Source of the DNA: Stramenopiles sp. TOSAG23-6 | Lineage: Eukaryota | DNA length: 39,882 nt | Reading direction: 5' to 3' | Assembly: GCA_900128565.1 (NCBI GenBank) | Contig: LT635936.1 | Location: 1-39,882, forward strand | Shown here: positions 1 to 23,549 of the stretch, piece after piece | Numbering within the stretch: position 1 is the stretch's first letter | Layout of the letters: each line of letters opens with the position of its first letter | The notes under the pieces: model-generated | The model's database searches: none | What the model was told of the DNA's origin: nothing | What the model saw: only the letters and a program-made list of their open reading frames with translations | Position numbers and translations under genes: made by a program

Positions 1-54
1 TTTGTACCTAACAAATTTTAGTTTTTTTTTTTGAAATATTTTTCCAAAATACAT
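1..54 (+). other. 3' part of a family intron, truncated by the window edge; probable non-canonical 3' end (...AATACAT)
   Basis: TTTGTACCTAAC (1-12) is the family core. TTTTTTGAAATATTTTTCCAAAATA is identical to the 3' end of intron 13201-13292, but it is followed by CAT rather than G. No AG follows until about 78-79, inside the conserved STGG motif. The exact end (52 or 54) is uncertain. Confidence 0.6.
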
Positions 55-1380
55 GGGCCTGTGATGGCATCTACCGGAGGACCCAATACACTAGTCTCTA
101 CTTCTTTAACACCCGAAGTTTCGGATGCTATACGAATGTCTGCAACTATTGAAAATTCAGGACAATGCACTGCTCTTCGTCATGCAGTGGTTCCGTGTAC
201 TTTAGATGAAGCTCACTCCATTTTTGATGGATGTGTAACACTCTCCTCGCCTAATGAAGCTTTGAAAAAAGGTGAATTTGCTGCGATTTATGACTTTGCT
301 TCAGATGTTATGAAATTAGAGAAAGGTTACAAAACTCATTTAGAAAATTCAAATGTTGCGTTAAAACATTCAAAGAATCTTCCTGGTTATGGTATTGAAG
401 AACACTGGCGGAATGTTTACGCAGATGTGACGTCACCAACTGAAAATATAAAATCGGGCAAATTTATATCAAAACTTTCCCGATGGCTTGTAGAAAATCA
501 ACCGATCACTTTAGCTATCAATGATGAAGAAAATAACTATACCCTTTCAAAACAATTATTTGAACAAACAGGACAGGTAGTTTACACTGTTGGTACAATA
601 CATAATCCAGCACTAACTTGTCAGGCTCGTCCACAAGATTCTGAAATATTTGGTGAATTTCCTGTCCGTCGAGATCTCTCACAATTTACGAAATATCCAG
701 TTATTGTACCATCATCAACTCCATCATACAATTCCACATACAATAAAAAATGGCTGAGTAAAATGGGTGGCTCTGGTCCAAGTGGTTTATTTGAATGGAA
801 AGCAAATGTAGCGCAATCTGCGATACACTTAATAGAATCAGTAAAATCTCAAGAAACAAAAGGATTCATGCGTGTAGTTCATGAATATTTATCTGATGCT
901 TTATTTGAGAATCCTAAATTAGGCCGAGGAGTCCGTACAACTTTATATGGATTACAAACGACACCTTTAAATGGTCAACTCAATTTCATTCGCTGTGATG
1001 AAAAAATGTCATTTGATGACCTTGCACCTTATGTTTGGCCGTTTTTTTTAACTTCTGCTCTACCTTTGCTCAAAGTATCTCTTTCACCATCTAATCAAAA
1101 GATAGCAGATGTACTTAAAACGCATGGTGTGAATACTATCATTGAATCCGCTGAGTCATTTACTGTTACCGCAAACGATGCTTTTAACATCACTTACCCA
1201 GAATTGTTTACAAGACGCAAAGAATGGCCACTCGCAGGTCAATTTATTTCACTTTATTTTTGTTGTGGTCACATCAAATCCACACATGATACTAAAGGTG
1301 GAAACGCCCCAGACAAAAAATTTATAGATGCTTTTGTTTCATCCAAAAAATGGCTTTCTATGAGAACTTTATCTGTTTAA
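55..1380 (+). CDS. Aldehyde dehydrogenase-superfamily protein (PutA/P5C-dehydrogenase-like C-terminal region), last exon; gene is 5'-partial
   Basis: ASTGGPNTLV resembles ETGGxNA and SATIENSGQCTALR resembles SAFxxAGQRCSALR. The ORF start at 31 lies in intron sequence. Confidence 0.65.
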   Translation, partial: GPVMASTGGPNTLVSTSLTPEVSDAIRMSATIENSGQCTALRHAVVPCTLDEAHSIFDGCVTLSSPNEALKKGEFAAIYDFASDVMKLEKGYKTHLENSNVALKHSKNLPGYGIEEHWRNVYADVTSPTENIKSGKFISKLSRWLVENQPITLAINDEENNYTLSKQLFEQTGQVVYTVGTIHNPALTCQARPQDSEIFGEFPVRRDLSQFTKYPVIVPSSTPSYNSTYNKKWLSKMGGSGPSGLFEWKANVAQSAIHLIESVKSQETKGFMRVVHEYLSDALFENPKLGRGVRTTLYGLQTTPLNGQLNFIRCDEKMSFDDLAPYVWPFFLTSALPLLKVSLSPSNQKIADVLKTHGVNTIIESAESFTVTANDAFNITYPELFTRRKEWPLAGQFISLYFCCGHIKSTHDTKGGNAPDKKFIDAFVSSKKWLSMRTLSV

Positions 1381-1547
1381 TACTATTTTCATACTATTTT
1401 TGTAAATAAAAAACGAAATCACCAAAATGATGTGAGGTTGAAAACTTGATATATTTATTTACTATAATCCAAACTATATAAATTATAAATTGTATGAATG
1501 CTCCATATTTCGTTCTGTAAAAAGTTGTGAAATTTTAAAAACTTTGT

Positions 1548-1868
1548 TCAACCGTGTTGGAACACCAAAACACCAACACTACCGACAAAAAAATATATTG
1601 TTTTTGCTTTTTCAGCCGTAATAAAAGATCCAAATGATTTCCCTACAGCAACATGCCAAGTTCCTTGATATTTTTCATCAAATGCTGTTTTTATCAACTT
1701 TGCACAACCTTGGTAGAATTGAACTTCACCCTTTTCTTGTTGTTGCAATACTTTCTGAGCTAAACTGACTGCAAATGTAGCATATTCTTCTTGTGCATCG
1801 ATGAGAATTCGTCGAACCTTTGCATTATATAAAGCACTTTCATCTGACTTTTTTAAAACTTCTGGCAT
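1548..1868 (-). CDS. Dynein light chain, LC8/DNAL4 family
   Basis: AKLIKTAFDEKYQGTWHVAVGKSFGSFIT...IYFFVG matches the LC8 family signature; 106 aa. Confidence 0.9.
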   Translation of the reverse strand: MPEVLKKSDESALYNAKVRRILIDAQEEYATFAVSLAQKVLQQQEKGEVQFYQGCAKLIKTAFDEKYQGTWHVAVGKSFGSFITAEKAKTIYFFVGSVGVLVFQHG

Positions 1869-2278
1869 TCTAAGATATTCTGTAAAGGGTGTTTTAATTT
1901 ACCTTCTTAATGATGCTTCCTAATGTGAACTTTTTTTTTCTCCCGAGACACTTTGAATATCAGAATTCAGATTTAGATTATTGTGAGGTGTATCCTCATT
2001 CCTCAAATTATAGAATGTAACGAACAAATAGATTTCGTGTTTTGAAAAAACATTTGAAGCATAATTTGAAATTTGCCAATCAAATCTAAATCGGCAATGA
2101 TGACATTGTTTGATGTCTCTCTCTTGAGAGTCTCTCTTGACTTGCATCATGTTATAGTAATAGTCTTTTACATTGACGACTCTTTGTATTTGTATTTGAA
2201 TANTTTTTACAACATTCGTTCCCATTACATTTTAGACATTTGACATCACATAAGAACACTTTGTAGTGGTAGAACGAT

Positions 2279-4962
2279 ATGAGCATGAATAATGCTGACC
2301 ATATACCTGTTCAGCGACAATTTAGCGAGCAAGGTTATGAAAACAGCAGTGAAAGTAAAGGAAAAAGCTTCTCAATAGTCAAACCTAAAAATGACCGTGT
2401 GTCGGCAAAATTAAGAGATGCTTCTACGAGAGGGAGAATTGAAAAGAATCTTCAACCTGCAACATCATTTAAATTACTTGAACCTAAATCGTCCCGTGAT
2501 CGTTTGCGTAACAAAAACCGAAGTTTATCTGAAAATGGCGACGTATATTTAGACTATTTGACTCTGAACTTCGTTGATGGTTCCATAAGCGGAATGGCAA
2601 GTCTTTATATTACAGAAATAGAATTAAAATATAGGCAATCTCATGCATATAACTATGCGAGTACTTTTGCGTGGGTGTATGGCGCACTTGCTGTCTGGCA
2701 ACTTCTATATATAATTCTTGGTTTACTTATTATTTTCCAGGGAGAAGTTCATAATGAATGTTATTCCAGGAATATTTATAGCGTATTATTTTCATTTTCT
2801 GCCTGTTTAGCATTCTTAGCGACTGGTTTAACTTTAAAAATACAACCCCAAAATTTGTTTTCCTTTGGGAAAATGGGGGAAAGTACTCGATTACAATATT
2901 TTATCAGTGTCATGTGGATCTTTGTGACAGTAGGGTACAGAATCACATCAATGGAACTTCTTTGCGGTGGTGACGGAACTCCTAACAATGGTATTCGTGC
3001 AGGTGATATTCTTATGGTTGGATTGGGACAACAGAATATTATGTACTTACTCATGTACGTTTTCATCATTTATTATTCAATTTCAAAAAAAAAACATTTC
3101 ATACCAAATTTTGTACTAACAAATTCCAAATTTGACATATTTTTCACCAAAACATGGGCAGTTTATGCTCTGGTTTGCGGTCACCATTTGTGCTTGTCAC
3201 TTTGTGCACAATCAATTCGCTTAGTTGGTTGGAGAGTCTTTACTTTGCTTATCGACCAATGAATGATTATGATGTTATGAATTCAATAGACTCTATCCAT
3301 AACTCTCAGTTGTTACCCGTTTCTTCAACCAATAGAATTGTGCACAGCTTTGATTCTACAGAAATAAGGCAAAGTATTATCAATCTTGGAGTGGTATTAA
3401 TGGCATCATTGATGTGTTATTATATGGTTCGAAAACTTGACCAAATGAAAAGAAGTTCATTTCTCACTTTATGGCAATTGAGGGAAGCAAATGTACGTCA
3501 TGAATTTAAAATTTATTTGTTTTGTACGAAATTTTGTGCCAAAGGATTTCTTTTTGAGTTTTGATGGTGTATATTTAATCTAAATCATGAATGTAAAGTC
3601 ATTCCATAACGAATTCCTAATTGGATATATTTTTTCAAAACAAATATCGATGCTGATATACAAATAAATCCATTTGCAACGCCAAACTTACGAGCATGGT
3701 TAAGTGGTCGATCTAGTTTCCGTTTTTCGCACAATTCAAGTGAAAGAGCCTCTAGAATTGAAGCAAATAGACAATCTAGAAATTTAAGTAAATCTGGTTC
3801 CATACGTACAAATTTACGAAATTCACTTATTGATAATTCTCAATATTCTGAGAGAGGCTATAACGAAAGTAAAGATGGTACAAATAACTACAAGCTAATA
3901 TGGGATATTGAGAATAGTGGAAAATCATTAAACGACGATTCGTTTCAAAACAGAAATAAACAAATAGAAAAAAGCCGAGAATGGATGCTCCGACAACGGC
4001 AGAGACCGTCATTCAGAGGTGCAGTTCAAATCGATCACCAATGGCAAATAGAGTTTTCACGGTTAAATATTTTAGAAAAGGTTGCTTCAGGTGCTTCAGG
4101 TCAAGTATTTAAAGCAGAGTATCTAGGTGTTCCTTTAGCCGTAAAGCAAATCTTTTCCACAATGATTTCAGAAGATCTTGATGAATTTTCTCGCGAACTC
4201 TCACTCCTAGCAAAAGTTGACCGACATCCAAATGTTGTACGACTTATGGGCATAGCAAAGGAGAAACCAAAACAAAAATTACCACCTTCGTTATACATTT
4301 GTATGGAATGGGTTAATGAGAACATGGAAAAGTTATTGGAAGATTCAAAGCGAGCTCCGAAAGATCTCTCTCAAGTCAATGACCTTAAGATTGTACTGCG
4401 ATTAGCACAACAGGTTTGTGCTGCAATGGTTCATTTACATCGTCAACGATGTCTTCATCGTGATCTCAAACCAGCAAATGTGTTAATTACACCTGAAATG
4501 CATGTTAAAGTTTGTGATTTTGGTGTGTCAAATTTGGGCTCAAATATTTTCAGAAAGTCAAAAGGTAAACGAATGCAACTTGCTAGTGGTGTTGGAACGC
4601 CTGGTTATATGGCTCCAGAAATGTACAGTGCTGAGCCTGTCGTTGGCTTTGAAGCCAATGCAAAGGTAGATGTGTTTGCATTTGGAGTACTATTAGCCTC
4701 TTTATGTACCTCAAACCGACCATATGGCAATGAGATCTCAGAACTTTCCCAATGGTGGTCAATTGATCGCTGGACAGTAGCAATGCAAAATGAAGGTTTA
4801 GTACCATATCTCGAGCCTTCCTGCAAAGTACCCAAGCAATTAGCTGATTTAATAGGTCAGTGTTGTGATTTTGATCCGCTTAGTAGACCTTCTTTCAAAC
4901 GTATTTCGTCATATCTTGCTAGAATAAGTAAAACAAGTCTTCCTCGGGAAACACTCGAATGA
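2279..4962 (+). CDS. Multi-pass membrane protein with C-terminal TKL-type protein kinase; join(2279..3054,3156..3492,3646..4962), 809 aa
   Basis: Several hydrophobic helices in exons 1-2. Frame is open from 3610 to 4962. Kinase motifs ASGASGQV, LAVK, HRDLKPAN, CDFG, GTPGYMAPE and DVFAFG are present. Joined length 2430 nt is in frame. Confidence 0.8.
3055..3155 (+). other. Family intron, 101 nt, GTACGT...AACAT (in-frame AG alternative ends at 3161)
   Basis: Explains the frame shift between ORFs 2279 and 3154. Core ATACCAAATTTTGTACTAAC ends at 3120. CATG is repeated at both junctions. Confidence 0.75.
3493..3645 (+). other. Family intron, 153 nt, GTACGT...CAAAT
   Basis: Contains in-frame stops. 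Core GTACGAAATTTTGTGCC near 3524-3540; CATAAC ends at 3610. For the phase-0 donor, the first frame-compatible AG is the GAG at 3850-3852. CAAAT is repeated at both junctions. Confidence 0.7.
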
Positions 4963-5166
4963 GCAAGTATAATTGAACTTTGAGTAAAGAAACATAACTT
5001 TGCTCATCTGAAGTTTGTCAGTGAAAAACAATTCTTTTAATATACTATTACTATAAACTATTTCTGCAAGTGTTTTTATTTTACAAACCAAAGAATGGGT
5101 TTTCAAAAAAGAGTACTCTTAATAAACTTTGGTGGGGATAGTTTTCTCATATATTTGAAGACCATA

Positions 5167-7458
5167 TTAAAATCCAACAAATTCAGGATTTTTTATGTCT
5201 ACCGCCATCGTTTCTTCTCGGGTAAACTCACCTGTGATCATAGGGTTGTATTCAGATCCCATACTTTGAGTCATACGTACACTCGATTTTGTAAAAGCCG
5301 GTGGTTTATTGAAGGGTAAATTGTATTTTTTACTCTCCACTTTTTGCCAGATGATACCATCGAAATATTCATGCATTCTCAAGTCATCAAATCCGCCACT
5401 CATCATTCCTAAGCGGAGAGCAGGGTTTTTGTTGAGTAATGCAGTCACAAAACCATGAGTTGCTTTACCTTCAACGTTCGGGTGGAATGAAAGTGTTTTG
5501 TTACAATGTACAATTCGTGAAAACATAGTCATTTGATCTTCAGAAACAAATGGAGTTTGGTGGTGAATTAACTCATACGCTATAATCCCCAGTGCCCAAT
5601 AATCAACTGCTTTATTGTGACCAGTGGCAAGAATTATTTCTGGTGCCAGATATTCGGGTGTTCCAACAAGCGTGCTAGTTTTTGTTCCAGGTTTTATGCG
5701 CTTAGCAAAACCAAAATCAACGAGCTTTATGTATCCATCTTTGCAGAGTAAAATATTTTCAAGTTTTATATCACGGTGTGCAAAGCCTGCTTCGTGGACT
5801 CTCTTTAGCGCAGATGTCAAAATGGTGACATACACTCGCGCCATACTTGATTGTAAACCCCCAAGCGAAGTTCTTGGAAGATTTTTAGATGCATACATCA
5901 AGTGCCACATATCACCACCAGCAATGTATTCGGTGATAAAGTACAAGGTCTTTTCGTCTTGCCAGGTTCCGAGGAGATCCATGATAAAAGTGGATCCCTT
6001 GAAGCAAATCAGTGCATCTCTCTCACGTGTAATGTTTTCTTCCTGATTTGTATCAAGTAGATGTGATTTATGAATAGCTTTTACAGCCACGTAGTTGCCG
6101 GTAGCTTTATGAGTAGCTAAATACACGTTACCATAAGTACCTGCACCAAGCTGTCCTTCACATTTATAATCTTTGAGTGATATGCGAATATCACACTGGT
6201 CGGGACTTTGTTCTGTCGCAATTATTTCACTGGTATTTGGTACTGCATTAATTAGTTCTTTCTTGAGTTTTACCAGTTTTTCATTGTGTGCTTCAATATG
6301 AGCTGCTTGTTTTGCTCTGTTCTGCTCCTCCCGCTCTATAACAGATTGTTCGATGACTTCTTGAGGCAGTAACTTAACAAAATCATCTGCTGTCAGCTGG
6401 AGGCAAACTACTGTAGTTGAAATTACGGTCACGGTTGCCATTCGTTTTGAAATTTTGTTGTCTTTAGACAGTAATGCCATCTCCCCGAAATGATCTCCTT
6501 TTCGTAATGTGGCCACGGGTACAGTACTTTTGCGGCGACTAATATTCTTCGGGGAACATTTTTTATCATAAGAGTTTTCTTGAGGTGTCGTCTTCGTATT
6601 ACGGCGGTCTGTTGAATCTGGAGAAACTTTTTCCCGTTTCCGACGAGAAAGTATGTTTGTCAACTTAGATTTCATATTTGTTCTTTGAGTTGCATCACCA
6701 TCAAGGTCGTTATTTTCATCATAGTTACAACGAGTAGAATCTTGTGCAACTGAACAGACACCATCAAACACTATGTAGAAAGAATCACCAGCATCACCCT
6801 CTGTAATAATTTTTGTCCCTTGCTTGAACTTCTTTTCAACCATGACATCAGTCAACGCAATCAATTGTAAGTGTGAGAGACTTGAGAGTAGAGTAACTTG
6901 CTTTAAAAACCCTAGAATCTCTACCTGGCGGGATGATGCACACTGATGCATCAAGGAGCGAAATATGGATCTTGTCATTACCCAAACTGTTCCAGGCAAT
7001 GAACAAATTACACTTGCAGTCCGTGGTAACTTTGCGTTGATCAAACCTGTTTCGCCAAAAGCAAATGGTGCACCAATTACACGTTCATCGTCGCCATCAT
7101 CACCTACCCTAATATTGACTTCACCTGATTCGAGCATGAAAAATTCCTCATTATGGGTTTCATCTTTTTGGATTAAGACGTCACCTTTATTTATATCTCT
7201 TTTGAACATTGCATCAATCATAGATCTAAGCTGATACAATTCAATTGCACGAAACAGAACGTGTTTACGCAAAGTTTCTAAAATGATTTCTTTCGTCTTT
7301 GAACTTTTCTCACCAGTAGACGTTGAACTTTCATTGACTTCATCTGAAGCACAATATATATTCTCGCGTGGACAAATTTCAGTCGCTGGCTTTTGCAACT
7401 TGATCGAAGCTCGGCTTTTCCTCGATGGTATATCGATTTTTTTTGCTGATTCCGTCAT
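5167..7458 (-). CDS. cGMP-dependent protein kinase-like (two cNMP-binding domains plus AGC kinase)
   Basis: FGETGL..PRTASV and FGEMAL..RMATV cNMP cassettes; GAGTYG, HRDIKLEN, DFG, GTPEYLAPE and DYWALG kinase motifs. First ATG at 7458. Confidence 0.9.
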   Translation of the reverse strand: MTESAKKIDIPSRKSRASIKLQKPATEICPRENIYCASDEVNESSTSTGEKSSKTKEIILETLRKHVLFRAIELYQLRSMIDAMFKRDINKGDVLIQKDETHNEEFFMLESGEVNIRVGDDGDDERVIGAPFAFGETGLINAKLPRTASVICSLPGTVWVMTRSIFRSLMHQCASSRQVEILGFLKQVTLLSSLSHLQLIALTDVMVEKKFKQGTKIITEGDAGDSFYIVFDGVCSVAQDSTRCNYDENNDLDGDATQRTNMKSKLTNILSRRKREKVSPDSTDRRNTKTTPQENSYDKKCSPKNISRRKSTVPVATLRKGDHFGEMALLSKDNKISKRMATVTVISTTVVCLQLTADDFVKLLPQEVIEQSVIEREEQNRAKQAAHIEAHNEKLVKLKKELINAVPNTSEIIATEQSPDQCDIRISLKDYKCEGQLGAGTYGNVYLATHKATGNYVAVKAIHKSHLLDTNQEENITRERDALICFKGSTFIMDLLGTWQDEKTLYFITEYIAGGDMWHLMYASKNLPRTSLGGLQSSMARVYVTILTSALKRVHEAGFAHRDIKLENILLCKDGYIKLVDFGFAKRIKPGTKTSTLVGTPEYLAPEIILATGHNKAVDYWALGIIAYELIHHQTPFVSEDQMTMFSRIVHCNKTLSFHPNVEGKATHGFVTALLNKNPALRLGMMSGGFDDLRMHEYFDGIIWQKVESKKYNLPFNKPPAFTKSSVRMTQSMGSEYNPMITGEFTREETMAVDIKNPEFVGF

Positions 7459-7783
7459 AGCGTTTACCAAGTATTATTTATTTAATTCTCTTCGAATAGG
7501 GAGTTTGTAATATTATTACTGGGTCGGAGATGAACTGAGTAAGCTTCATCGAAGCTTTAAACCCAAGGCATCTTCTTGACAAGTCCGGGTAAAAAAACAA
7601 AAAAAAAGTACTTTCTTCTTGAACAAACCTGTTTTTCAAATTGGCCTGGCCAACCATCAAGAAGGCAAGTCAGTCCCTAAAAATCATAAAAATCATAAGA
7701 GAAATTTATATTCTTGAATAACATTATTATTGGAGTTTGGAAGTCCGTGACGTTGTCAGGTGAATTGAGAAGTGAAAAAAAAC

Positions 7784-8593
7784 ATGTCAACGTCGTCAAA
7801 GATAAGTGGACAAACGTGTTATTTTTGCGGGAAAATTACACTTTCTGAAATGCGTTGTGGCGGTTGTCATATGGTTTGGTACTGCAATAAGACGTGTCAA
7901 AAAAAATCCTGGAAAGCTGGGCATAAGGAAGAGTGTGCCCAATTCAAGTCTCAAAAGAAATCTAAGGGAAAAGCACTACTGGATGCAAACGCTTATGACC
8001 GTCGGGGTGCACGGTATCTAGGAAAGAGGAAGTGGAAAAAAGCCGAAGCGGAGTTTAGAAAGGCTTTATCCATATTACCACCAAGAGTTGAAGGCGAGCC
8101 ATCCATATTTTTTGAAAATCGTGCCAAAGCTTTAAATAGTATCGCCTGTGCCTTAATACAACAGGGTCGAAAAACCGAAGCAGAGAAAACATTACGCCAG
8201 TCCTTGCAAGAGTGGCCTCAATATTATAAATCTTTGTTTGATTTGGCGCAATTATTCAAAATGAGGGGAGATATAGAAAGATGTTTTAGTACACTTAAAG
8301 AAGGGATTACAGTTGATTCAACATTTAAGCCTATGATCGATATGTTTTGTGGTATGGTATTTGAAGACGTTCAAACAAAAATGAAAACAGAACCTCAACG
8401 CGCCATAGAAGTTGCAAGAGATGCCGTGTCGTTACTTCCACAAAATGTAAAATTGCGAATGGTGTGTTCGACAGCCTTAACTATGAATATGCAATTCGAA
8501 GAAGCAAAGAATGAGATTGAAGTTGCCTTAACAATCGACCCGGGTAACCAGTCACTACTTTCAACACGGGCAAAACTTAACAAAATTATTTGA
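7784..8593 (+). CDS. MYND zinc finger plus TPR repeat protein
   Basis: CYFC...CGGC...YCNKTCQKKSWKAGHKEEC is a MYND finger; TPR-like helices follow (AEAEFRKAL, ALTIDPGN). First ATG at 7784. Confidence 0.85.
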   Translation: MSTSSKISGQTCYFCGKITLSEMRCGGCHMVWYCNKTCQKKSWKAGHKEECAQFKSQKKSKGKALLDANAYDRRGARYLGKRKWKKAEAEFRKALSILPPRVEGEPSIFFENRAKALNSIACALIQQGRKTEAEKTLRQSLQEWPQYYKSLFDLAQLFKMRGDIERCFSTLKEGITVDSTFKPMIDMFCGMVFEDVQTKMKTEPQRAIEVARDAVSLLPQNVKLRMVCSTALTMNMQFEEAKNEIEVALTIDPGNQSLLSTRAKLNKII

Positions 8594-8631
8594 AATTATT
8601 AAAGATATTATTTTGTCATATATTTTATTTG

Positions 8632-11438
8632 TTAGAAAAGCATTATCCACATTATTTGGTATACTATTGCAATCACACAGACAAACACTACTATCTTTCT
8701 ATGCTTCACCACGGTAGATCTGAGTAGAGAAGTTTGATGTGAAGATATCCAGCTTCCACAACGACCTAAACCATTTATAATAATAGTTTTGAATAAATTC
8801 CACAACCAATGAAGAGTCGTGTAACAAGCTTGCAGCATTGACTTTGATGGAACATTACTACCCACTTTTTTTAAGGTTCTAACAGATCCACAACATGGAC
8901 TAAATAAAGATCGCACGATAGAAAAGCAGGCATACATAAGTTTTATAAATGGACTGAGTGTAGATGACAAGATTTTCCATAAAATTGCACCGAGAGCAAT
9001 CGGAAACTGTGCTAATTGAGCTACCATATTATAGATCAACCGAATACCATGCCAAAGTACAATAAATAGACTATTTGAAGGGATAATAACAGCAAAAAGG
9101 GAAGTGATCCTTAAGACAAAAGTTTCTTCAAACCACTGGAACCATGAACCAAATAACCAAGTGAAAAAAACACGAACGATTTCAACTTTGGAAAATAAAT
9201 CATAAAGCCCAATAAACATCATACAAATAGATGCAACCCATACACCAACTACCATCAAAGTACGCATATATTGTGAAAAAATATTTCAAAAAAAAGTCGT
9301 TACGTACAAAATTTCGTACGAAAAAAAAACTTTGAAATTGAAAAAAAAAATAAAACATACATCCACCAACGGTAAAAAATACCATAACTATTAAGGAAAA
9401 TTGCCCAGCTTGGAAGACCTGACTCACATAACTGGGTAAGTTTATCGCTGCTAAGTACGAAATGTTTTACAACAGGGTGAACCAGAGGATCACGAAATCG
9501 AATTTGTACCATTTGATTAATAATTTTTTCCTTAACAGGTTCTTTCATTGAACTAAGAATTTCTTGTTGTTGTGTAGCTCCTGCAAATCTTCGGGAGGAC
9601 CATGCAACGACATGTAATATTGCTCTCTTTATCGCATTTAAAATTTTTCGTCTAACTCCTTCGTCTTGTAATAATTCCGCATTAATACGAAGTTTACTAC
9701 TACTAATTCTATGTTTTTTACGTCTCCGAATTGCCCTATTACCAATGTATTTTCCATGTGAATTTTTCCTTGCTTTATTTTTGAATTTCCTTTTCAATAA
9801 CTCATTACTCTTTAATCTATTATTTACAGAATTACTCGAAGATTCTTTCATACCTGAAGGATTTTTTGCATCACACGAAATATCCATTTCTATATTTGAA
9901 ACTAAAGATAGAGGTATATGACCTATAGAATCATCATTACTATCTATTCCTCTATTTGGTGTATGTGGAGACACACTTGATGATGAATCTTTCATTATTG
10001 GTGAAATTTTGTTTCCGTTATTTTCAGTTGGTGTTCTATCGAAATTGTTATTTTCTGCCAGAGATTTGGGACTTTGTACATTCGAATCTGTACTAAACGA
10101 ATTTCGAATTTGTTGAATACCCTTCCTTTTCTTTTCTGTTGAAGACTCTTCAAATGCAAATTCATTCTTTTGACTATCATTACGATTACTGCGATGAATA
10201 TTATTACCTGTGATATCATTCACTTCTTCATAAACACTTGGAGGAGTGAATGGAGAATTTGGTCGATTCGTACTCAAATCATTAGATGAATTTATATTGT
10301 GATTTTCTGATTCAGGGGATAGAGAAGTATATATGGAATGTTCTCTTTTCTTCGGTGGTTTTATCTTAGGTACTGGTACATCTTGTGTTTTTGGATTCCA
10401 ATGTCTCACTAATTCACCAGTTTCAATAATTATACTTCCCATCGAAGTTATTTCATTAGTATATTTAAAACCAAAAATTTTATCAACAGGAACGATAAAC
10501 AAAGTTTGTCCAATGTATGGGTGGAATGGTGATTCCTTGAGGTGCAATTTGAATGCTCTAAATATAAAAAAAATAACAACTGATCCAAAATATATCGAAA
10601 CTCGTATTGTTAAGTACATTACGACAAATACAGAAATAATGACTGACGACCAAGCAGGAAATATTGTAGTTAACCAATCGTCATCACTCAATTTTTCTGC
10701 ATAACGTACACTTATTATAACCTGCCCGTGTTTTCCTTTTTCGTCATCATTTGAATCATCTGGGGCTATTATTTCCATAGTAAGCTGTTGACCACCAGTG
10801 CTATTAAGTCTCCACAAGCCAACCTGAAATTCATCAATGGGTAGAATGTGTCGATCTAGAGACAAACCATACCAATCTTCACCGTGGCCAGTAGCTAACA
10901 AAAGTCGACTCAATAATTCAGGTCGCATAGAAGAAACTTGGTTGATGAGATCATCATATACGTCTTTTGGGCTAAATTGCTGTGTTCCTGGACTTCTAGG
11001 AGAAGTTGCCATCGAATCAATACTAAGGCGTCGACTGACACTTTTAGAACGACAAAACTGAGAAAGTTTCCGTATGCATTCAATATCAGCGTCTCGCTGA
11101 ATTGATGGATCACCTGCAGCTTCATACGCAAGCCAATCTGCAACTCTTTCACGAACGGCCGGAGAATTTGCCCAGTCAAAAGCCCAAGAAGCAGCCTTTG
11201 ACTTCAACACATCCAAATTACGGCCAGATAGCACTGGTGTGAAAGGATTATCATCATTGCTAAACTCATAGGGACTCGATTTAGACAAATCTGCGCTACG
11301 AGTGCTTGTATTTACATCAGAATTTGCATGTTTAGATCGATTTCTACGAGAAACGGGAGTTTTTACTGGAGTTGACGAAACGCCGTTCTCAGCTCGGTTA
11401 CGTTTTGAACTCAAACGTTTTAAAACGCCTTTGAGCAT
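8632..11438 (-). CDS. Conserved uncharacterised membrane protein; join(complement 9361..11438, 8632..9265), 903 aa
   Basis: Two ORFs are joined by a family intron, giving ESGLPSWAIFLNSYGIFYRWWMRTL...IGLYDLF. This resembles a motif I recall from uncharacterised plant proteins (GxPSWxIFxxSY..YRPWMRxL..IGFYDLY). Joined length 2712 nt is in frame. Confidence 0.7.
9266..9360 (-). other. Family intron, 95 nt, GTATGT...ATATAT
   Basis: Minus strand reads GGAT|GTATGTTTTATTT...TTCGTACGAAATTTTGTACGTAAC...TTGAAATATTTTTTCACAATATAT|GCGT. Splicing restores WWM-RTL. Confidence 0.8.
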
Positions 11439-11797
11439 CTTGAGAGCAGACAATTCCACAAAAGTTTTTACGAAGTTTCAGCTTTCAGTGAATGGTATTG
11501 ATAATTATCAAAAAGTAGATTGCAATGAGATTTGCATCATCAAAACATCCAAGAAACACCAAAGATCTTCAGTGAGATAGACTTCGAAATGATATTAATC
11601 CTACAAATTAAATTATAGGCGAGTTTTCAATTCGTATTTTTTTTATTTTTTCTTCGATTTGGGATTTCGTGTAAATACTACGATTAGGGTTTATTGATTG
11701 ATGTTTTCAAGAGTCAAGTATCATCAATAATATTATAATGACAGTGACATTGCTTTTTCTTAGCTTATTGTTTACATAGATTAGCTGGTTATTGTTA

Positions 11798-14700
11798 ATG
11801 AGCCAAAAGATGGAGCATAGGTTCCAAGGTGAGGGTGTTTCTTTTAATGTAACGCAGAGTGGTTCTGTTACAACTTTGTGGTCTTCTACAGCACGTTGCT
11901 TGACTATTAACTTAAGAACGCGGGAGTTATTTGTCGAAATGTCTGTTTCAGGTTCTAAGGTGCACAAGAGTTATCCAACATCTGGTTTAACAAAGTTGAT
12001 GCCTGGTAAATCCCCTGGTTCTTTAAGTGTCAGTGTGCGTAATGAGGGTAATAAGGCTTTAAAAAAGTATAAATTTCGCGACAGTGCTAGTCGAAACACA
12101 TTTTGCAAATACATTCGATGCGCAAACCAATATGGCTATATTGTCGAGGAGTTGTATCGGAATTGTACGAATTCTTCCGAAGAACACACTGCGAGTAATA
12201 ATAGTTTATGTCCCGCTATAGATATATTTGATGACGACTTGTTATTAAAGGGTATATCGCGACTTGGATTCTCGAATCCTTCCACTCGTAAAGAACTCAG
12301 TGATTTAGTATTTCAGTTACGAAAAGTTGGTACAAAAACATCAAAAAATCTATTAACTGATAAACATTCTATTGATAATTTTCCTGTGATTACATACCGG
12401 GATATTTTTGATATATTCTGTCATTTAGTTATTGAAAACTCGATAAATTCTGGATATGGGAAGGGAAATTCTGAGAATGAATACGAAAATAGTGGGACAA
12501 ATGATTCTCCTGGTACATTTCAGAATTTGACTGCTTTAGGTCTTCAACTGCCTAAACAGGATTTGATTCCAGGAGAAAATTTTGATGAATTTCTAATTTA
12601 TGATCAAGTTTCATTATTATGGTGGCATATGTTCCCTGAAGGTAAAAGACAAGTATATGTCCATGGTCGACTTTTTATTACGCAATACCGTTTGGTGTTT
12701 CTTGCATTTAAAGCACTTCCAAGAACTTCAGGTAAAGCATCTGAAAATAGTGGAATTCGAAGATTATCAGAGGTAGCAAGTGAAACTCTTCAAGCGGAAG
12801 TACCCCTCTCTAATGTCAATTATGTAAGACAACCTCGCGATGATCCTACGTCTATTTGTCTATATTGTAAAGATCTTCGGTCTTTGACTTTTACGTTTAA
12901 CGGTTCTACAAAAGTTGTGGATAATTTTGTGAGTGTTTTGGAAAATCGAATATATTTTGAATATTTACCTAATTCGATCAAAGATTTGAAGATAGATGAT
13001 ATAAATTCAAATTCAAAAATGAATCTTACAAATGAGAAAAAAATTAAAAATTGTGAAGGTACCCGAAATCAAAATAATCTAGATAATAAAGTATTTGCAT
13101 TTATGCAACCTACACCAAAACAAAATATATGTTTAGGAAGAATACGTGCTGACACAAGGGGAAAAAACAGTACAAGGCTTCCCGACTTTTCATCTGAATG
13201 GTATTTTTTATTTTTTTTCAATTTTTGAATTTATTTTTCATACGAAATTTTGTACCTAACGGATTATTTTTTGAAATATTTTTCCAAAATAGGTCTTCAT
13301 ATAATCCCATAAATGAATTTCATCGAATGGGTCTCTTAGATATTTCAATGCAGGAAACATCGAATCAAAAAGATAATATTTTTGATCTTTCTATTTCATC
13401 CAATCCACAAAGTGAGACACCAAACTCAACGAGAAACAACGTTCATAATTCATGTAATTTAAATGTAAATAGAAATGACCTCGAATTTTCAGTACCACAA
13501 AATCATTCTCAATGGCGTTTGTTTCATAATATTAATTTTAAAACAAGTCCAACATATCCTGAATATTTGATCATACCCAACACGCAACTTTTCTCAGATG
13601 AAGATTTATCTGCTGTATGTGCGTGGAGATCAAAAGCGAGATTTCCAGCTGTTACGTGGCATTGTCGTAAAAGTGGTGTTATTTTAGCTCGTTCGGCAAT
13701 GCCATTGAGAGGTCGAGCAGGTATGTCAAATTGTAGAGCTGATGAAAATCTTTGTGACATTTATCGAAAATCTGTGATAAATAGTTATGGAAGTACCACT
13801 CATGTAAATACTGAAAATAAACAAAGAATATCTCCAAAAACTTATATGAAAACACCAGGTAAACCTTCAAATAGACGGCGGATTTTTGGTAGTAAATGGA
13901 ATCCAGATTATGAAACTTCACGAAATCGATCAGTAAGTCAAGAATCACTTTCTAGTACTCCAGCATTTGTGGTGATAGATTGTCGTCCAGCAATTAATGC
14001 AAAAGCAACACAGATTATCAAAGGCGGGGGTGAAGAAAAAGCTTCAAGATATCAAAATACAACTTTAGAAAGGCTATATATAGAAAACATACACGAAATG
14101 CGTAATTCCCTTGTTGAGCTTGCAAAGATATGTCTTCCTGGTTCAATAAGCGATGATGATAATAATTGGTTGTCAGATGTACAAAATACTGGTTGGTTGC
14201 GGCATATCCGGATGGTATTGGCAGGATCTGCTCGCGTCGCTCAACTACTTATTGCAGAAAATACATCTGTTTTGGTTCATTGCAGTGATGGATGGGATAG
14301 AACTGCTCAAATATGTGCTACAGCTCAGTTGTTAGTTGATCCGTACTATCGTACTCTGGAAGGTTTTGGCGTCCTAGTAGAAAAAGATTGGTTGTCATTT
14401 GGCCATAAATTTCATGATAGAATAGGACATGGTCAGCGACCAAGAAAAGGTGACTATGTACATTTTCATCATTAGTTTCAAATTCATTTTGTTTTGTATC
14501 AAATTCTGTAACTAACAAACTTCAAATTTTATATATGTTTTACAAGATATACTCACGGTGGTGGTGGGTTCTTTGCTTCACGAGAAGCTTCGCCAATATT
14601 CACACAATGGATAGATTGTGTCTGGCAGCTGACGCGGCAATTCCCTACTGCATTTGAATTCAGTGAAAGAATGCTCATCTTCGTTGCAGACATGTCATCC

Positions 14701-15109
14701 TCATGTCGTTTTGGTAATTTCTTATGTAACTCAGAACGAGAAAGATCAGAACTTAATGTGAAGCAGAAAACTCCATGTATCTGGTCATATATATGTAGCC
14801 GAAATCATCATAGGAATAACAAATCAAATCGAGAACTTTTTAGTAATCCATGTACGTAATCATTTATTATTCATTTCAATTGTTTTTTGTACCAAATGTT
14901 GTACCTAACGAATTTTAAATGTAACAATTATTCCCAAAAGTACATGCTATCGAAAGGTGGATAGACCATTGTATCCCTCCACTTCACCGAAACGATTAGT
15001 GCTGTGGGATAAATTGTATCTTCGATTCGACCCAGCCTTATCCATTCCCGGGTCCGATGATGAAACTTGGGAAGGTAAATCAAGAGTTTTATCTCCTAGA
15101 GCTAGGTAG
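11798..15109 (+). CDS. Myotubularin-family PI3P/PI(3,5)P2 phosphatase with GRAM-like domain; join(11798..13200,13293..14457,14551..14851,14946..15109), 1010 aa
   Basis: GRLFITQYRLVF (GRAM-like), WSSYNPINEFHRMG, RSKARFP, catalytic HCSDGWDRT, EKDWLSFGHKF, SPIFTQWIDCVWQL, FGNFLCNSERER, NPCY and LWDKLYLRF. Joined length 3033 nt is in frame. Confidence 0.9.
13201..13292 (+). other. Family intron, 92 nt, canonical GT-AG
   Basis: TG|GTATTT...ATACGAAATTTTGTACCTAAC...CCAAAATAG|G restores the conserved W in WxxY. Confidence 0.9.
14458..14550 (+). other. Family intron, 93 nt, GTACAT...GATAT
   Basis: In-frame stop at 14473-14475; ACTAAC ends at 14516; the AG at 14545-14546 is out of frame; TAT is repeated at both junctions. 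A 135-nt canonical alternative (14450-14584) exists. Confidence 0.65.
14852..14945 (+). other. Family intron, 94 nt, GTACGT...TACAT
   Basis: Restores NPCY (myotubularin NPxY). CCTAAC ends at 14909; CATG is repeated at both junctions. A canonical alternative (14856-14940) gives NPCTTCY. Confidence 0.7.
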
Positions 15110-15220
15110 TTGCATGTGTTAGATTGATACCCGAGTACATGTAATGGTTATTAAAATGAAAATTGAAATGAAAACGAATATTCAAAACTGTTTTTTATTT
15201 ATCATTGTACTCTGAGGATA

Positions 15221-20599: not shown

Positions 20600-20616
20600 T
20601 CTATATTTTAGTTAAG

Positions 20617-20789
20617 GCATGTAGCTTGTGAACTGAGAGAGTTATCAGCGAACATCAATTTTCTTTCCTTTCAGTTTTAACAGACACAGTATAGTAGTAG
20701 TTATTGCATGTAGCTTGTGAACTGAAAGAGTTATCAGCAAACATCAATTTTCTTTCCTTTCAGTTTTAACAGGCACAGTATAGTAGTAG
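20617..20789. repeat. Tandem duplication of an 84-bp unit (20617-20700 and 20706-20789)
   Basis: GCATGTAGCTTGTGAACTG...CACAGTATAGTAGTAG occurs twice with 3 mismatches, just upstream of the VPS9 gene ATG. Confidence 0.9.
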
Positions 20790-20963
20790 TAGGTAGTATA
20801 CCTACTATATAGCTACAGTAGTAGGTAATTACAAATTTGAAATTGACAGTTACTTTACTACTTTTTGGTAGCAAAATTAATTTTGAAATTTCATCCATAA
20901 AAAAAATTTAAAAAAATATAAAATTCATGGGTGGGTTCTTTATTACTATAAAAAATATAAGTA

Positions 20964-22316
20964 TTAAATTTTGTCAACTAGTTTCTCAATTTTGGACAAC
21001 TTATCTTTGCATGTCACGAAATCTCCAAAAGTGTCATCACTAAGAGAACTGCCTGTACAACTATTTTCTGCATCATCCTTTACTAACGAGACTTCACTAC
21101 GATTTTGTTTTTCTATATTATTTTTTACTTCAGCACGATTTTGTTTTTCTATATTATTTTTTTTTCTAATGGAAACCACTTTGGGTTTAATTTCCGGCGG
21201 TTTCAAAGGATTTTTCAATTCTTTAGCTTCTCCATCTACAGTAGCGACACCAATGCGTAATCTGAGAAGATCAAGGGCTAATTTAGAGGGTGGTCGTGGC
21301 ACTGGGGGTGGTTTTTTCCCACTATTAGTCAGGGTTGGGGTTATATCTTTTGACTCTTTTTCCTGGCCAAGTTTGCAGGTTTTTGAGTGTGTATCAATTG
21401 TATCTATATGAATCCGCTCACCACATACAAAACATTTAATCATTACGTCGGATTGTAGCTCATGTCCTCTATTTACAATTTGTTTCGCCTTTCTTGGGAC
21501 AGTGAGAGCAATTAAACGCGATTTGCCCATAACTTGTCCACATTTATCCTCTGTGACGACTTGAAATATAGTTGCAGTTAAAAGCATCCACTCATTCAGT
21601 GTCACACCTCCATCGTCTTCTTCCATTGTTGTTAAACTATAAGTGTTGACAGAAGTGATTACAACCTGATTATTTTGAATTTGGATTTCTATACTAGTCG
21701 GTGAAGCATTTGAATTATTCACTGGGACAATGTGCAAATCTTTCCTACCAAATAATTTCTCAACTACAAAGTAAGAATCTCCACCAGATAGTGTTCGCGC
21801 AGCAAAACGCATAACAAAATTTTGAAATTTAACGACATCTTTCTCATCATCGCTCTTCATAATTTTAGTGAGAGAGTTTCTTAAAGCTTTGAGTAGACAC
21901 GGATCAGAACCGTTAAAAACGACACCATCAACCTCAATAAACTCACGGGCAGCATCTTTCATTACTTGATCTAAATCAGGAAGTTGAGAAGGTGGCAATT
22001 TCATACCAGCAAGATCCCTTTGATAATCTTTGACTATTTTATATAGCTCTAAAGGAGTAGAAGCCTTTAGTGTTTGGCTTGAAATATCCTCGACTAAACC
22101 AGGTGAAATTAGCGAAAATAGTTCATCAGGCTGCGCACCAGGATCTCTAATTTCTGTTCCGCGCACAATACCCATCAACTTGCTAGTTTTTTCACGTATA
22201 AATGTCGAACCTAGACGACGAATATTGTTTATGGAAGCTACATTGATGGTATTTTGTTTTAGAAAAGTGGAACCTCGTCGGCGAAGTTTTCCCCCCTTGT
22301 CTTTTAGGATATTCAT
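20964..22316 (-). CDS. Hypothetical protein with a C2HC zinc finger and a proline-rich segment
   Basis: Long ORF; CFVC-x11-HSKTC; KKPPPVPRPPS. First ATG at 22316. Confidence 0.7.
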   Translation of the reverse strand: MNILKDKGGKLRRRGSTFLKQNTINVASINNIRRLGSTFIREKTSKLMGIVRGTEIRDPGAQPDELFSLISPGLVEDISSQTLKASTPLELYKIVKDYQRDLAGMKLPPSQLPDLDQVMKDAAREFIEVDGVVFNGSDPCLLKALRNSLTKIMKSDDEKDVVKFQNFVMRFAARTLSGGDSYFVVEKLFGRKDLHIVPVNNSNASPTSIEIQIQNNQVVITSVNTYSLTTMEEDDGGVTLNEWMLLTATIFQVVTEDKCGQVMGKSRLIALTVPRKAKQIVNRGHELQSDVMIKCFVCGERIHIDTIDTHSKTCKLGQEKESKDITPTLTNSGKKPPPVPRPPSKLALDLLRLRIGVATVDGEAKELKNPLKPPEIKPKVVSIRKKNNIEKQNRAEVKNNIEKQNRSEVSLVKDDAENSCTGSSLSDDTFGDFVTCKDKLSKIEKLVDKI

Positions 22317-22536
22317 ACTATTATGAATTCTAAGCTTCAAACATAAGGGATGATACCAGAGTAATAAAATGTAATCATATGTATATAGATGTTATTATTG
22401 AACCTAAGTGATTTTTTTATCTCCAGATAGCGTTCACTACTATCTCGGTATATTATTCATTTACAATATATGAATGATATTAGTAAAAAGTTACGTGCGA
22501 GATATCCATATCTCCGATCTTGAAATAACGGGTGAA

Positions 22537-23358
22537 CAGGGTTGCATGGGCACGGCCGTTCCGAAGAATTTTTCGGAACGGGCAAAAATTTTATTCCCGT
22601 TCCGGAATGATTTTTCGGAACGGGCAAATATTTTATTCCGTTCCGAAATGATTTTTCGGAACGGGCAAATATTATATTCCCGTTCCGGAATGATTTTTGC
22701 AGATTTCGCGGAACGGGCAAATATTATATTCCCGTTCCGGAAGAATTTTGCGGAACGGGAATGGACCGGAACGGAATGAAGCTTTTGTTCCGGTTTTGTT
22801 CCTTTTAAACCCTAACCCTAATAATTTCGAATTTATTTTTTTCGTACGAAATTTTGTACCTAACAAAAAAATCAAAGTTTTGGAATATCGCCCGTGGACA
22901 AATCTGCTCAGATTTACCCGACTACCTTAACAAAAAAAAATCACAAAAAAAATTTCAAAAAAGAAATCTCATAGTAGTATCACGTGAACATTGTAGTATA
23001 AATGAATACTAGTAAAAAGAAAAGAATCAAAAATAAAATTTTATCTTCAAATTTTGATTATCCATAAATTAAATAGGCAAAATGTAATATTTCATTTTTG
23101 TGCCCGTTCCGCCGTTCCGCACTCTAGTGCGGAACGGGCAAATATTTTATTCCCGTTCCGAAATGATTTTTCGGAACGGGCAAATATTATATTCCCGTTC
23201 CGGGCAGATTTTGCGGAACGGGCAAATATTATATTCCCGTTCCGAAAAATTTTGCGGAACGGGAATGGACCGGAACGGGAACGGAATGGACCGGAACGGG
23301 AACGGAACGCAGTTTTGTTCCCAAAAAAATCAGCGAAAATTGTGCCCGTGCAACCCTG
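22537..23358. mobile_element. Non-autonomous hAT-type DNA transposon (MITE), 822 bp
   Basis: TIRs CAGGGTTGCATGGGCAC (22537-22553) and GTGCCCGTGCAACCCTG (23342-23358) match at 16/17. Perfect 8-bp TSD CGGGTGAA at 22529-22536 and 23359-23366. Subterminal arrays of CGGAACGG/CCGTTCCG; no transposase ORF. Confidence 0.92.
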
Positions 23359-23549
23359 CGGGTGAAAGTTACACAAAAAAAACAAAATTTTTTCCATATC
23401 ACGAAATATTAATTAATATTTATTATACGGCATTACGATTACCCGGTAATGACATTGCTTCGCGATTTTTGGAGTCTCATGGAGATCTGTGGTTGCACTC
23501 CGAAGCGAAGTTCGAACGAACAACATTGAAAGCGCTGCTGAAGTAGACG

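What the first reader, a model, noticed from the sequence alone, without database searches (positions are those of the whole stretch)
1..14945. Introns in unrelated genes are sequence-related and fall into two subfamilies (introner-like burst)
Seen: group A (3055, 14458, 14852) starts GTACRT..TCATT(T/A) followed by TTCA. Group B (13201, minus 9360, partial 1-54) has GTATKTTTTATTTTTTTT and ends TTTTTTGAAATATTTTT(T)C; 25 nt are identical between the window-start intron and 13201-13292. Meanwhile COPB1, the VPS9 gene, the PKG-like gene, the ankyrin gene and MVD (1.2-5.4 kb) have no introns. Established: introner elements are transposon-derived repeated introns in algae, fungi and other eukaryotes. 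Inference: these are recent mobile intron gains in an intron-poor genome.
Basis: partly seen in the sequence, partly recalled or inferred. Interest (0 to 1): 0.75.

Follow-up and report, generated by a model that had tools for sequence, protein, structure and literature searches.

The report
Repeated mobile-type introns in MAST-3
All seven introns in this stretch of an uncultured marine protist genome are copies of one ~95-base repeated element that occurs thousands of times in seawater DNA, so they look like transposon-type "introner" introns, and most of them seem to end without the usual AG splice signal.

Summary
The window is from a MAST-3 stramenopile (COPB1 is 89% identical to a MAST-3 single-cell gene model).

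All seven are one family of 92-101 nt (one composite of 153 nt). They share GTAYRT, CAATTTCAA, a palindromic core AAATTTTGTACCTAAC (branch site) and TTTGAAATATTTTTCCAAAAYAT. The likeness exceeds shuffled and intergenic controls and persists after the splice signals are removed.

Group B is tight. Group A is loose and no closer within itself than to B.

In two seawater metagenomes, summed contig depth over group-B introns is about 1000-fold above single-copy flanks. About 4,900 contigs of one run match.

A family fragment lies outside genes, inside a hAT-like MITE.

Boundaries carry 3-5-nt direct repeats. Frame and homology show that at least three introns (1-54, 14458-14550, 14852-14945) cannot end in AG.

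Splicing itself was not seen in RNA, and no presence/absence polymorphism was found.

Best reading: an introner-type mobile intron family (0.7). The non-AG 3' end is the unusual part.

The parts
1..54 (+). I1: 3' part of a group-B family intron, cut by the window edge. It sits in a gene of a conserved family of unnamed function (homologues).
   Evidence: nhmmer E=2.9e-6, not in the profile. 25 nt are identical to 13267-13291; the two closest of 24 homologues read ..L-HGPV(I/M)ASTGG, and an H stands at that position in 8 of the 24, so the mRNA must read CAT GGG at 52-57. There is no AG between 22 and 77.
3055..3155 (+). I2: group-A intron in a membrane-protein/kinase gene (2273-4962). The 3' end is ambiguous between 3155 (..ACAT|G) and 3161 (..GGGCAG|T).
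   Evidence: (E=9.2e-20). Both ends keep the frame. CATG is a direct repeat.
3493..3645 (+). It is one degenerate full copy (3488-3578) plus a second 3' half-copy (3605-3645).
   Evidence: E=4.9e-12 and 0.009. GT 3493 to AT 3645 keeps the frame. No in-frame GT-AG pair within 60 nt; the in-frame ones end at 3694 or beyond. Direct repeat CAAAT.
9266..9360 (-). I3: group-B intron in an unnamed membrane-protein gene (8632-11477, minus).
   Evidence: E=2.4e-20. GT 9360 to AT 9266 is in frame, but a canonical alternative GT 9382 to AG 9249 (134 nt) is in frame too. A second copy of the family 5' end (ATGGTATTTTTTA) lies 22 nt upstream.
13201..13292 (+). I4: group-B intron in the myotubularin gene. 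It is the one copy with canonical GT-AG ends.
   Evidence: (E=2.2e-15). 13201..13292 is the in-frame pair that uses the family's 5' end; a GC 13177..AG 13292 pair is also in frame.
14458..14550 (+). I5: group-A intron in the myotubularin phosphatase domain, with a non-AG 3' end.
   Evidence: (E=7e-14); the closest homologues keep xPxx after GHGQ and FFATKECSP, so the donor lies after about 14447 and the acceptor before about 14560. No GT-AG or GC-AG pair fits there. Direct repeat TAT. An independent metagenome contig spans 13262-14908 without gaps.
14852..14945 (+). I6: group-A intron in the myotubularin gene. Its ends CATGTAC...GTACATG form a 7-nt inverted repeat.
   Evidence: (E=1.9e-18); the GT..AT junction gives 8 residues between the NP and LYP anchors, as in 16 of 22 homologues. 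The only nearby GT-AG pair (14856..14940) gives 11, as in 1 of 22.
22824..22867 (+). Extragenic fragment of the family (middle block with the branch-site core; no 5' GT end). It follows CCCTAACCCTAA directly.
   Evidence: E=8.5e-8, model columns 29-73, not in the profile..
22529..23366 (.). 822-bp non-autonomous DNA transposon (22537-23358) that holds the fragment. It has an 8-bp direct repeat CGGGTGAA on both sides, 17-nt terminal inverted repeats and arrays of a 41-42-nt palindromic subterminal unit.
   Evidence: (D1, D3, I2-I13).

Best explanation
These are introner-type introns: copies of a short (about 95 nt), AT-rich, non-autonomous mobile element that has spread through the genes of a MAST-3 stramenopile.

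Anatomy:
- The element carries its own 5' splice site at its very first bases (GTAYRT).
- It carries a strong yeast-like branch site (TTGTACYTAAC, inside the near-palindrome GTACGAAATTTTGTAC) 33-43 nt before its last base.
- It is flanked by a 3-5-nt direct repeat, most simply a 3-bp NAT target duplication.

Inferred mechanism: after insertion in sense orientation, the transcript is cut at the element's first G and after the downstream copy of the repeat. Exactly the insert plus one repeat copy is removed and the reading frame is restored.

Subfamilies: B (I1, I3, I4) is the highly amplified form. The A-type copies (I2, I2b, I5, I6) are more diverged members of the same family.

Shown: family likeness beyond the splice signals; copy number; position in ORFs; frame restoration at family-defined ends; the extragenic fragment.

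Inferred: DNA-level transposition; removal by the major spliceosome; use of a non-AG 3' site.
For: (1) One family. The profile hits and E-values are and the alignment. With the 5' hexamer, the branch motif and the last 3 nt removed, 7 of 10 pairs upstream of the branch site and 3 of 10 downstream still beat all 300 shuffles.

(2) Amplification. Summed contig depth in seawater DNA run X3:
- bin 1-510: 10,983
- bin 9181-9690: 12,134
- bin 12751-13260: 5,084
- single-copy bins, including AT-rich intergenic ones: 2-12
At base 9303, depth is 181,437 (X3) and 68,795 (X4). At least 94 and 67 contigs carry the family consensus base there rather than the window's. 4,967 (X3) and 1,905 (X4) contigs were laid on 15.3 kb.

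(3) All 7 of 7 genic copies are in the sense orientation of their gene.

(4) Intron G+C is 0.17-0.25 against 0.34-0.44 in the 150-nt flanks.

(5) Cutting from the G of GTAYRT to the end of the family's 3' block gives an open frame in 6 of 6 complete copies.

(6) Direct repeats of 4, 5, 3, 3, 3 and 4 nt lie at the six junctions. Among the five copies that end in AT, the base before the shared AT matches in 4 of 5.

(7) A family fragment lies in intergenic DNA inside a transposon.

Against: - No spliced RNA was seen. The one RNA-library contig that crosses a junction (X7, 2769-3134) runs unspliced into I2. Intron-to-exon depth ratios in the RNA runs (about 10,000) are close to those in DNA (about 15,000-22,000), so DNA carry-over or retained introns cannot be told apart.
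- No empty site or insertion polymorphism was found. The metagenome contigs that span I2 and I5 contain them.
- Terminal inverted repeats are short (3-7 nt), and only 7 copies are available for judging the duplication.
- No autonomous partner or transposase is in the window.
- The depth may pool several related species.
- Four scans of public contig collections found no copy.
Confidence: 0.7

Rival explanations
1. Same repeated intron family, but spread at the RNA level (reverse splicing or intron transposition, as proposed for fungal introner-like elements) rather than by a DNA transposon.
For: Uniform length near 100 nt. Own 5' splice site and branch site. Only weak terminal inverted repeats. 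No transposase in the window.
Against: Reverse splicing leaves no flanking duplication, yet 6 of 6 junctions have 3-5-nt direct repeats. A fragment without splice ends sits in intergenic DNA. Predicted folds are no more stable than shuffles in 4 of 5 copies (z from -2.25 to +1.35), unlike what I recall being reported for fungal elements.
Confidence: 0.15
2. Not mobile. The introns look alike because an intron-poor genome keeps long, strict splicing signals (as in budding yeasts or Trichomonas) plus T-rich filler.
For: The best-conserved blocks are the 5' splice site and the branch site. The genome is AT-rich. Several long genes have no introns.
Against: The likeness remains after the signals are removed. 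25-nt and 81-nt stretches are shared. There is subfamily structure. The extragenic fragment, the direct repeats and the thousand-fold depth at 90% likeness or more are not expected from signals of 6-9 nt.
Confidence: 0.08
3. The non-AG ends are an artefact. The introns are ordinary GT-AG introns that use other nearby sites, and the protein simply gains or loses a few residues.
For: I2 (3055..3161), I3 (9382..9249) and I6 (14856..14940) each have an in-frame GT-AG pair, and I4 is GT-AG.
Against: I1 has no AG between 22 and 77, while the two closest of 24 homologues require HGPVMASTGG to be coding. For I5, homology fixes both exon edges and no GT/GC-AG pair fits. For I6, the GT-AG pair ignores the conserved GTACGT donor and adds 3 residues, giving a spacing seen in 1 of 22 homologues against 16 of 22 for the family-defined cut. 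An independent contig confirms the DNA without indels.
Confidence: 0.25

Closest known systems
Introners of marine protists (Micromonas, Aureococcus, and Tara MAG taxa; Gozashti et al. 2022, PMC9860276, passages read; Huff et al. 2016, known to me only through citations)
   Same: Short non-autonomous elements present as hundreds to thousands of similar introns in unrelated genes. Lower G+C than exons. Flanking 3-9-bp duplications in some families. Removal restores the frame. The Chrysochromulina family described there carries its 5' splice site and takes the 3' site from a 4-bp duplication without terminal inverted repeats, which is the same layout as here.
   Different: In those families the borrowed 3' site is AG. 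Here the repeat ends in AT in 6 of 7 copies. The lineage (MAST-3) is not named in any passage I read.
Non-canonical introner elements of Amoebophrya (Farhat et al. 2021, PMC7789003, passages read)
   Same: Repeated introns with 3-5-nt direct repeats that overlap the exon/intron boundaries, so the cut site is ambiguous. Ends that can pair. Splice dinucleotides other than GT-AG.
   Different: Amoebophrya elements have 8-20-nt inverted repeats, no fixed 5' motif, and U1 was not found. Here the 5' site (GTAYRT) and the branch site are textbook U2-type, inverted repeats are 7 nt or less, and only the 3' end is odd.
Fungal introner-like elements (van der Burgt et al. 2012; recalled, seen only as a reference)
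   Same: Intron families of about 100 nt at unrelated positions.
   Different: As I recall, those have canonical splice sites, no duplications and unusually stable predicted folds. Here there are direct repeats, and the folds are unremarkable.
Budding-yeast introns (GTATGT ... TACTAAC; recalled)
   Same: The 5' hexamer GTATGT/GTACGT and the branch motif TACTAAC (exact in I2).
   Different: Yeast introns are not a repeat family and end in YAG.
U12-type AT-AC introns (recalled)
   Same: If the cut is slid 2 nt within the direct repeat, the termini read AT-AC (I1, I2, I6), AT-AT (I3, I5) and AT-AA (I2b). As I recall, these pairs are known from minor-spliceosome introns.
   Different: The 5' end reads ATGTAYRT, not ATATCCTT. 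The branch motif lies 33-43 nt from the 3' end, not 10-20 nt.

Membership tests
Introner (transposon-type repeated spliceosomal intron) | Interrupts ORFs, and its removal restores one reading frame | tested here: met
   6 of 6 complete copies by frame. Homology across the junction for I1, I5 and I6.
Introner (transposon-type repeated spliceosomal intron) | Many similar copies at unrelated positions | tested here: met
   7 copies in 4 genes. Depth about 1000-fold above single copy, and about 4,900 matching contigs in one metagenome. This is pooled over whatever organisms share the family.
Introner (transposon-type repeated spliceosomal intron) | Similarity over the whole element, not only at the splice signals | tested here: met
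   7 of 10 and 3 of 10 pairs beat all 300 shuffles after the signals were removed; 81 nt at 79% between I3 and I4.
Introner (transposon-type repeated spliceosomal intron) | Transposon hallmarks (target-site duplication, terminal inverted repeats, copies outside genes) | tested here: inconclusive
   Direct repeats of 3-5 nt at 6 of 6 junctions. Inverted runs of 3-7 nt. One extragenic fragment. The sample is too small for a logo.
Introner (transposon-type repeated spliceosomal intron) | Shown to be spliced from RNA | tested here: inconclusive
   only contigs of two RNA runs from one sample were available. No spliced joint appears among the 15 joints shown (126 not shown). One contig runs unspliced into I2.
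Introner (transposon-type repeated spliceosomal intron) | Lineage-specific or polymorphic positions (recent gain) | not testable with these tools
   No genome is held for the window and no related DNA was found. Contigs of X3 that span I2 and I5 contain them.
Amoebophrya-type non-canonical introner | 8-20-nt inverted repeats at the intron ends | tested here: not met
   The longest exact inverted run is 7 nt (I6); the others are 3-6 nt. The ends pair in the minimum-energy fold of 3 of 5 copies.
Amoebophrya-type non-canonical introner | 3-5-nt direct repeats overlapping the boundaries, and non-GT-AG termini | tested here: met
   Non-AG 3' ends for I1, I5 and I6.
U12-type (minor spliceosome) intron | 5' motif RTATCCTT and a branch motif TCCTTAAC 10-20 nt from the 3' end (motifs recalled) | tested here: not met
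   The 5' ends read (AT)GTAYRT. The branch motif ends 33-43 nt from the 3' end (positions).
Fungal introner-like element | Predicted fold more stable than expected (recalled) | tested here: not met
   z-scores -0.24, -2.25, +0.48, +1.35 and -1.37. Only 1 of 5 is below -2.
hAT-type MITE (the 822-bp element at 22537-23358) | 8-bp target duplication, short terminal inverted repeats, subterminal repeats, no ORF (features recalled) | tested here: met
   CGGGTGAA at 22529-22536 and 23359-23366. The 17-nt ends CAGGGTTGCATGGGCAC and GTGCCCGTGCAACCCTG match at 16 of 17 by eye. Repeat arrays. No transposase homology was tested.

The most novel reading that the evidence does not exclude
In this MAST-3 lineage, thousands of introns with textbook U2-type 5' splice sites and branch sites are cut at a 3' site fixed by the end of the inserted element and its target duplication (..NAT|), not by an AG. 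The spliceosome would then choose the 3' site without AG on a genomic scale, perhaps by distance from the branch point (33-43 nt) or by pairing of the intron ends. The one GT-AG copy (I4) would show how such inserts later gain canonical ends.
Probability: 0.35. Interest if true: 0.85.

Novelty: new variant of a known kind. Interest (0 to 1): 0.62.

Why it matters
Introners are the best-documented way that genomes gain introns in bulk. Each new lineage shows how a transposon supplies or borrows splice signals.

This family would add an abundant, uncultured group of ocean grazers (MAST-3). In the passages I read from four MAST genome or single-cell papers, two never use the word intron, and the other two use it only for methods or genome-fraction statistics. 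None describes repeated introns. A library search for 'introners' together with 'MAST' found nothing.

The practical consequence is visible in the window. A public gene model of the first gene (P0241) is 100% identical in its matched parts. It starts at an internal Met and lacks three internal segments (23, about 29 and 9 residues) that homologues retain. Standard GT-AG gene finders will mis-annotate genomes full of such introns.

If the non-AG 3' ends are confirmed, the family offers a natural test of how the second splicing step finds its site.

Tried and rejected
- Public contig collections gave nothing. A two-block pattern found 0 matches in metagenome, viral and genome contigs. All of them are chance matches: only one weak nhmmer hit (E=0.003), and it covers the searched core itself. 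The 21-nt 3' block found 14 bacterial loci with single chance matches and 0 viral.
- RNA evidence was limited to Logan contigs of two runs from one sample. Exon depth was 0-3, no spliced joint appeared among the 15 shown, and contigs at 9002-9252 end near the AG at 9249-9250 without a joint. This is not usable for or against splicing.
- A protein search with the C-terminal 276 residues of the upstream exon of the I3 gene found no homologue, so I3's two in-frame solutions stay open.
- A PDB sequence search with the first gene gave no significant match. My first impression that it is ALDH-like rests on recalled motifs only and is dropped.
- Rfam and tRNA scans of the window gave no hits, so the conserved intron core is not a known RNA gene.
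- Earlier-findings look-ups gave nothing.
- The global percent identities are not used, because the same aligner gives 70% on shuffled sequence.
- The U12-type reading and the fungal ILE reading were considered and not met (see the membership table).


Full report
**Source.** The window is AT-rich (32-41% G+C per kb) and densely packed with long eukaryotic ORFs.
- Its COPB1 is 100% identical to a protein from a Logan assembly.
- It is 89% identical to a gene model named GSMAST32 in EukProt, which I read as a MAST-3 single-cell assembly.
- It is about 50% identical to a record named INCI..., which I read as Incisomonas.

I therefore treat the source as a MAST-3 (Nanomonadea) stramenopile. No whole genome is held for it.

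**The observation.**
- Repeat finding and a profile search add a seventh intron at 3493-3645 in the same gene as 3055.
- They also add a fragment at 22824-22867 in intergenic DNA.
- The alignment shows that groups A and B are homologous from end to end. The order is: 5' GTAYRT; a T-rich or TCATCATT stretch; CAATTTCAA; YRTACSAAATTTTGTACYTAAC; TTTGAMATATTTTTC(A)CCAAAA; then a few bases ending in AT.
- The core is a near-palindrome (GTACGAAATTTTGTAC). That explains the weak reverse-strand echoes.

**More than chance, and more than splice signals.**
- The 16-nt core occurs 9 times at up to 3 mismatches, against 1.22 expected.
- 12 of 21 intron pairs score above the best of 2,100 dinucleotide shuffles, and 15 of 21 above the best of 122 intergenic 100-mers.
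- A profile of six copies recovers the two copies not used to build it, at E=8.5e-8 and 2.9e-6. Its nine rows with E<0.01 all lie at family loci.
- After deleting the 5' hexamer, the branch motif and the last three bases, 7 of 10 pairs (upstream segment) and 3 of 10 pairs (downstream segment) still beat all 300 shuffles. One upstream pair (I4/I5) and one downstream pair (I5/I6) are no better than shuffles.

**Subfamilies.** I3/I4 score 61, and I1 shares 25 exact bases with I4, so B is tight. The A pairs score 31-39 and the A-to-B pairs 28-39. 'Group A' is therefore a set of more diverged members, not a second clade.

**Copy number.** Contigs of two independent seawater DNA runs and two RNA runs (one sample) were laid on 1-15300 at 90% likeness or more.

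Summed depth in run X3, by bin:

| Bin | Content | Depth |
|---|---|---|
| 1-510 | group B (I1) | 10,983 |
| 9181-9690 | group B (I3) | 12,134 |
| 12751-13260 | group B (I4) | 5,084 |
| 3061-3570 | group A | 32 |
| 14281-14790 | group A | 22.5 |
| 14791-15300 | group A | 235 |
| 20 single-copy bins, including AT-rich intergenic stretches | single copy | 2-12 |

- At base 9303, inside the core, depth is 181,437 (X3), 68,795 (X4), 34,118 (X7) and 33,187 (X8). Nearly all of it carries the family consensus base, not the window's.
- 4,967 contigs of X3 and 1,905 of X4 were laid on 15.3 kb. Only a few dozen can be single-copy pieces.
- Many 'joints' are cross-joins between copies, for example 54 to 13201 and 3516 to 14885.
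- So the family exists in thousands of contexts. How many belong to this species rather than to relatives cannot be said.

**They are introns.**
- Each of the six complete copies separates two ORFs of one gene, and all seven lie in the sense orientation.
- They are much poorer in G+C than their flanks (0.17-0.25 against 0.34-0.44).
- Cutting from the G of GTAYRT to the end of the family 3' block yields an open frame in 6 of 6.
- For the composite I2b, the in-frame 3' end (3645) is the end of the second half-copy that the profile located independently.

**The 3' ends.** Only I4 ends in AG at the family-defined end. The others end in ..NAT, and the exon upstream also ends in NAT, so the junction can slide within a direct repeat. 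The repeats are CATG, CAAAT, ATG, TAT and CATG, with GGT in I4.

I tested whether nearby canonical sites could serve instead:
- **I1.** There is no AG between 22 and 77. The two closest of 24 homologues read ..L-HGPV(I/M)ASTGGPNTLV, the ASTGGPNT block is kept almost throughout, and an H stands at that position in 8 of the 24. CAT GGG at 52-57 must therefore be in the mRNA. The 25 bases before it are the stretch that is intronic in I4.
- **I5.** The three closest long-loop homologues keep GHG(Q/K)-xPEL and FFATKECSP, or YFPTKESSP. This fixes the donor after about 14447 and the acceptor before about 14560. No GT-AG or GC-AG pair keeps the frame there. A metagenome contig spanning 13262-14908 agrees with the window without gaps.
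- **I6.** The family-defined cut gives 8 residues between the NP and LYP anchors, as in 16 of 22 homologues, with the conserved aromatic residue in register. The only nearby GT-AG pair skips the conserved GTACGT donor and gives 11 residues, as in 1 of 22.
- **I2 and I3.** Both have in-frame GT-AG alternatives (3055..3161; 9382..9249) and remain open.
- **I2b.** It has none within 60 nt.

At least three of seven copies therefore lack a 3' AG. Read as GT..AT, the ends are uniform. Slid by two bases they read AT-AC, AT-AT or AT-AA. The product is the same either way, so RNA reads alone would not tell the two readings apart.

**Transposon marks.**
- Direct repeats are present at 6 of 6 junctions. 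Among the five copies that end in AT, the variable base before the shared AT matches in 4 of 5. This suggests a 3-bp NAT duplication, but five cases are few.
- Terminal inverted runs are 3-7 nt. The intron ends pair in the minimum-energy fold of 3 of 5 copies, and overall stability is unremarkable.
- The fragment at 22824-22867 has no 5' splice end. It sits in the middle of an 822-bp element with an 8-bp flanking repeat, 17-nt inverted ends and subterminal repeat arrays. Family sequence therefore exists outside genes, and cut-and-paste elements have been active here.

**Against the mobile reading.**
- No spliced RNA was seen, and one RNA-library contig (2769-3134) runs into I2 unspliced.
- RNA and DNA runs show similar intron-to-exon depth ratios.
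- No empty site was found.
- No copy turned up in the public contig collections searched.

**Comparison with what is known.**
- The layout 'element carries the 5' site, 3' site taken from the duplication' is described for a Chrysochromulina introner family (PMC9860276, passages).
- Repeats overlapping the boundaries with non-canonical termini are described for Amoebophrya (PMC7789003, passages). There they come with long inverted repeats and without a standard 5' motif.
- The four MAST genome or single-cell papers I searched by passage do not describe repeated introns. A library search for 'introners' together with 'MAST' found nothing.
- The large introner surveys used Tara MAGs.

**Verdict.**
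- The element of real novelty is the apparently AG-less 3' boundary joined to a textbook 5' site and branch site. It rests on frame and homology, not on RNA.

Noticed in passing
window 22529-23366: An 822-bp non-autonomous DNA transposon sits in the divergent promoter region before COPB1. It has an 8-bp flanking repeat CGGGTGAA, 17-nt inverted ends, and arrays of a 41-42-nt unit with the palindrome CGGAACGGG...CCCGTTCCG. By recalled criteria it looks like hAT/Ac-Ds. Its middle holds CCCTAACCCTAA (telomere-like) next to the intron-family fragment.
   Followed up: partly
window 64-1380 (protein P0241): A public gene model of this locus is 100% identical in its matched parts. It starts at the internal Met at 64 and lacks three internal segments (23, about 29 and 9 residues) that are open reading frame here and are kept by homologues. 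These are probably spurious GT-AG introns from automatic annotation.
   Followed up: partly
window 9373-9385 (minus strand): A second copy of the family's 5' end (ATGGTATTTTTTA, identical to the start of the intron at 13201) lies 22 nt upstream of the 9360 intron. This gives an alternative in-frame GT-AG intron 9382..9249. It could be a nested or duplicated terminus.
   Followed up: partly
window 3488-3645: The intron at 3493 is about 1.5 copies of the family. The first copy has a decayed branch motif (TTGTGCCAAAG), and a second 3' half-copy supplies CCATAAC and the 3' end.
   Followed up: partly
window 26750-28507 (minus): One ORF combines a myosin TH1 tail domain with a protein kinase domain and an AGC-type C-terminal extension (Pfam).
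   Followed up: no
window 19106-19423, 20013-20183, 20609-20786, 32637-32846, 33217-33940: Tandem repeats of 159, 57, 89, 42 and 276 nt. All but the 89-nt one lie inside the long VPS9/WW and ankyrin ORFs. The two 89-nt units (94% alike) lie just upstream of the VPS9 gene's ORF.
   Followed up: no
window 2203 and 39167-39367: A single N and a 201-base run of N. The run splits the EamA transporter gene near the window's end.
   Followed up: no
window 1880-1940 and 29533-29580 (minus strand): Two other ORF breaks might hold short introns that do not belong to the family: GTAAATTAAAACACCCTTTACAG, and GTATTTATTATTATTAAC...TTGAG. Their frames were not checked.
   Followed up: no
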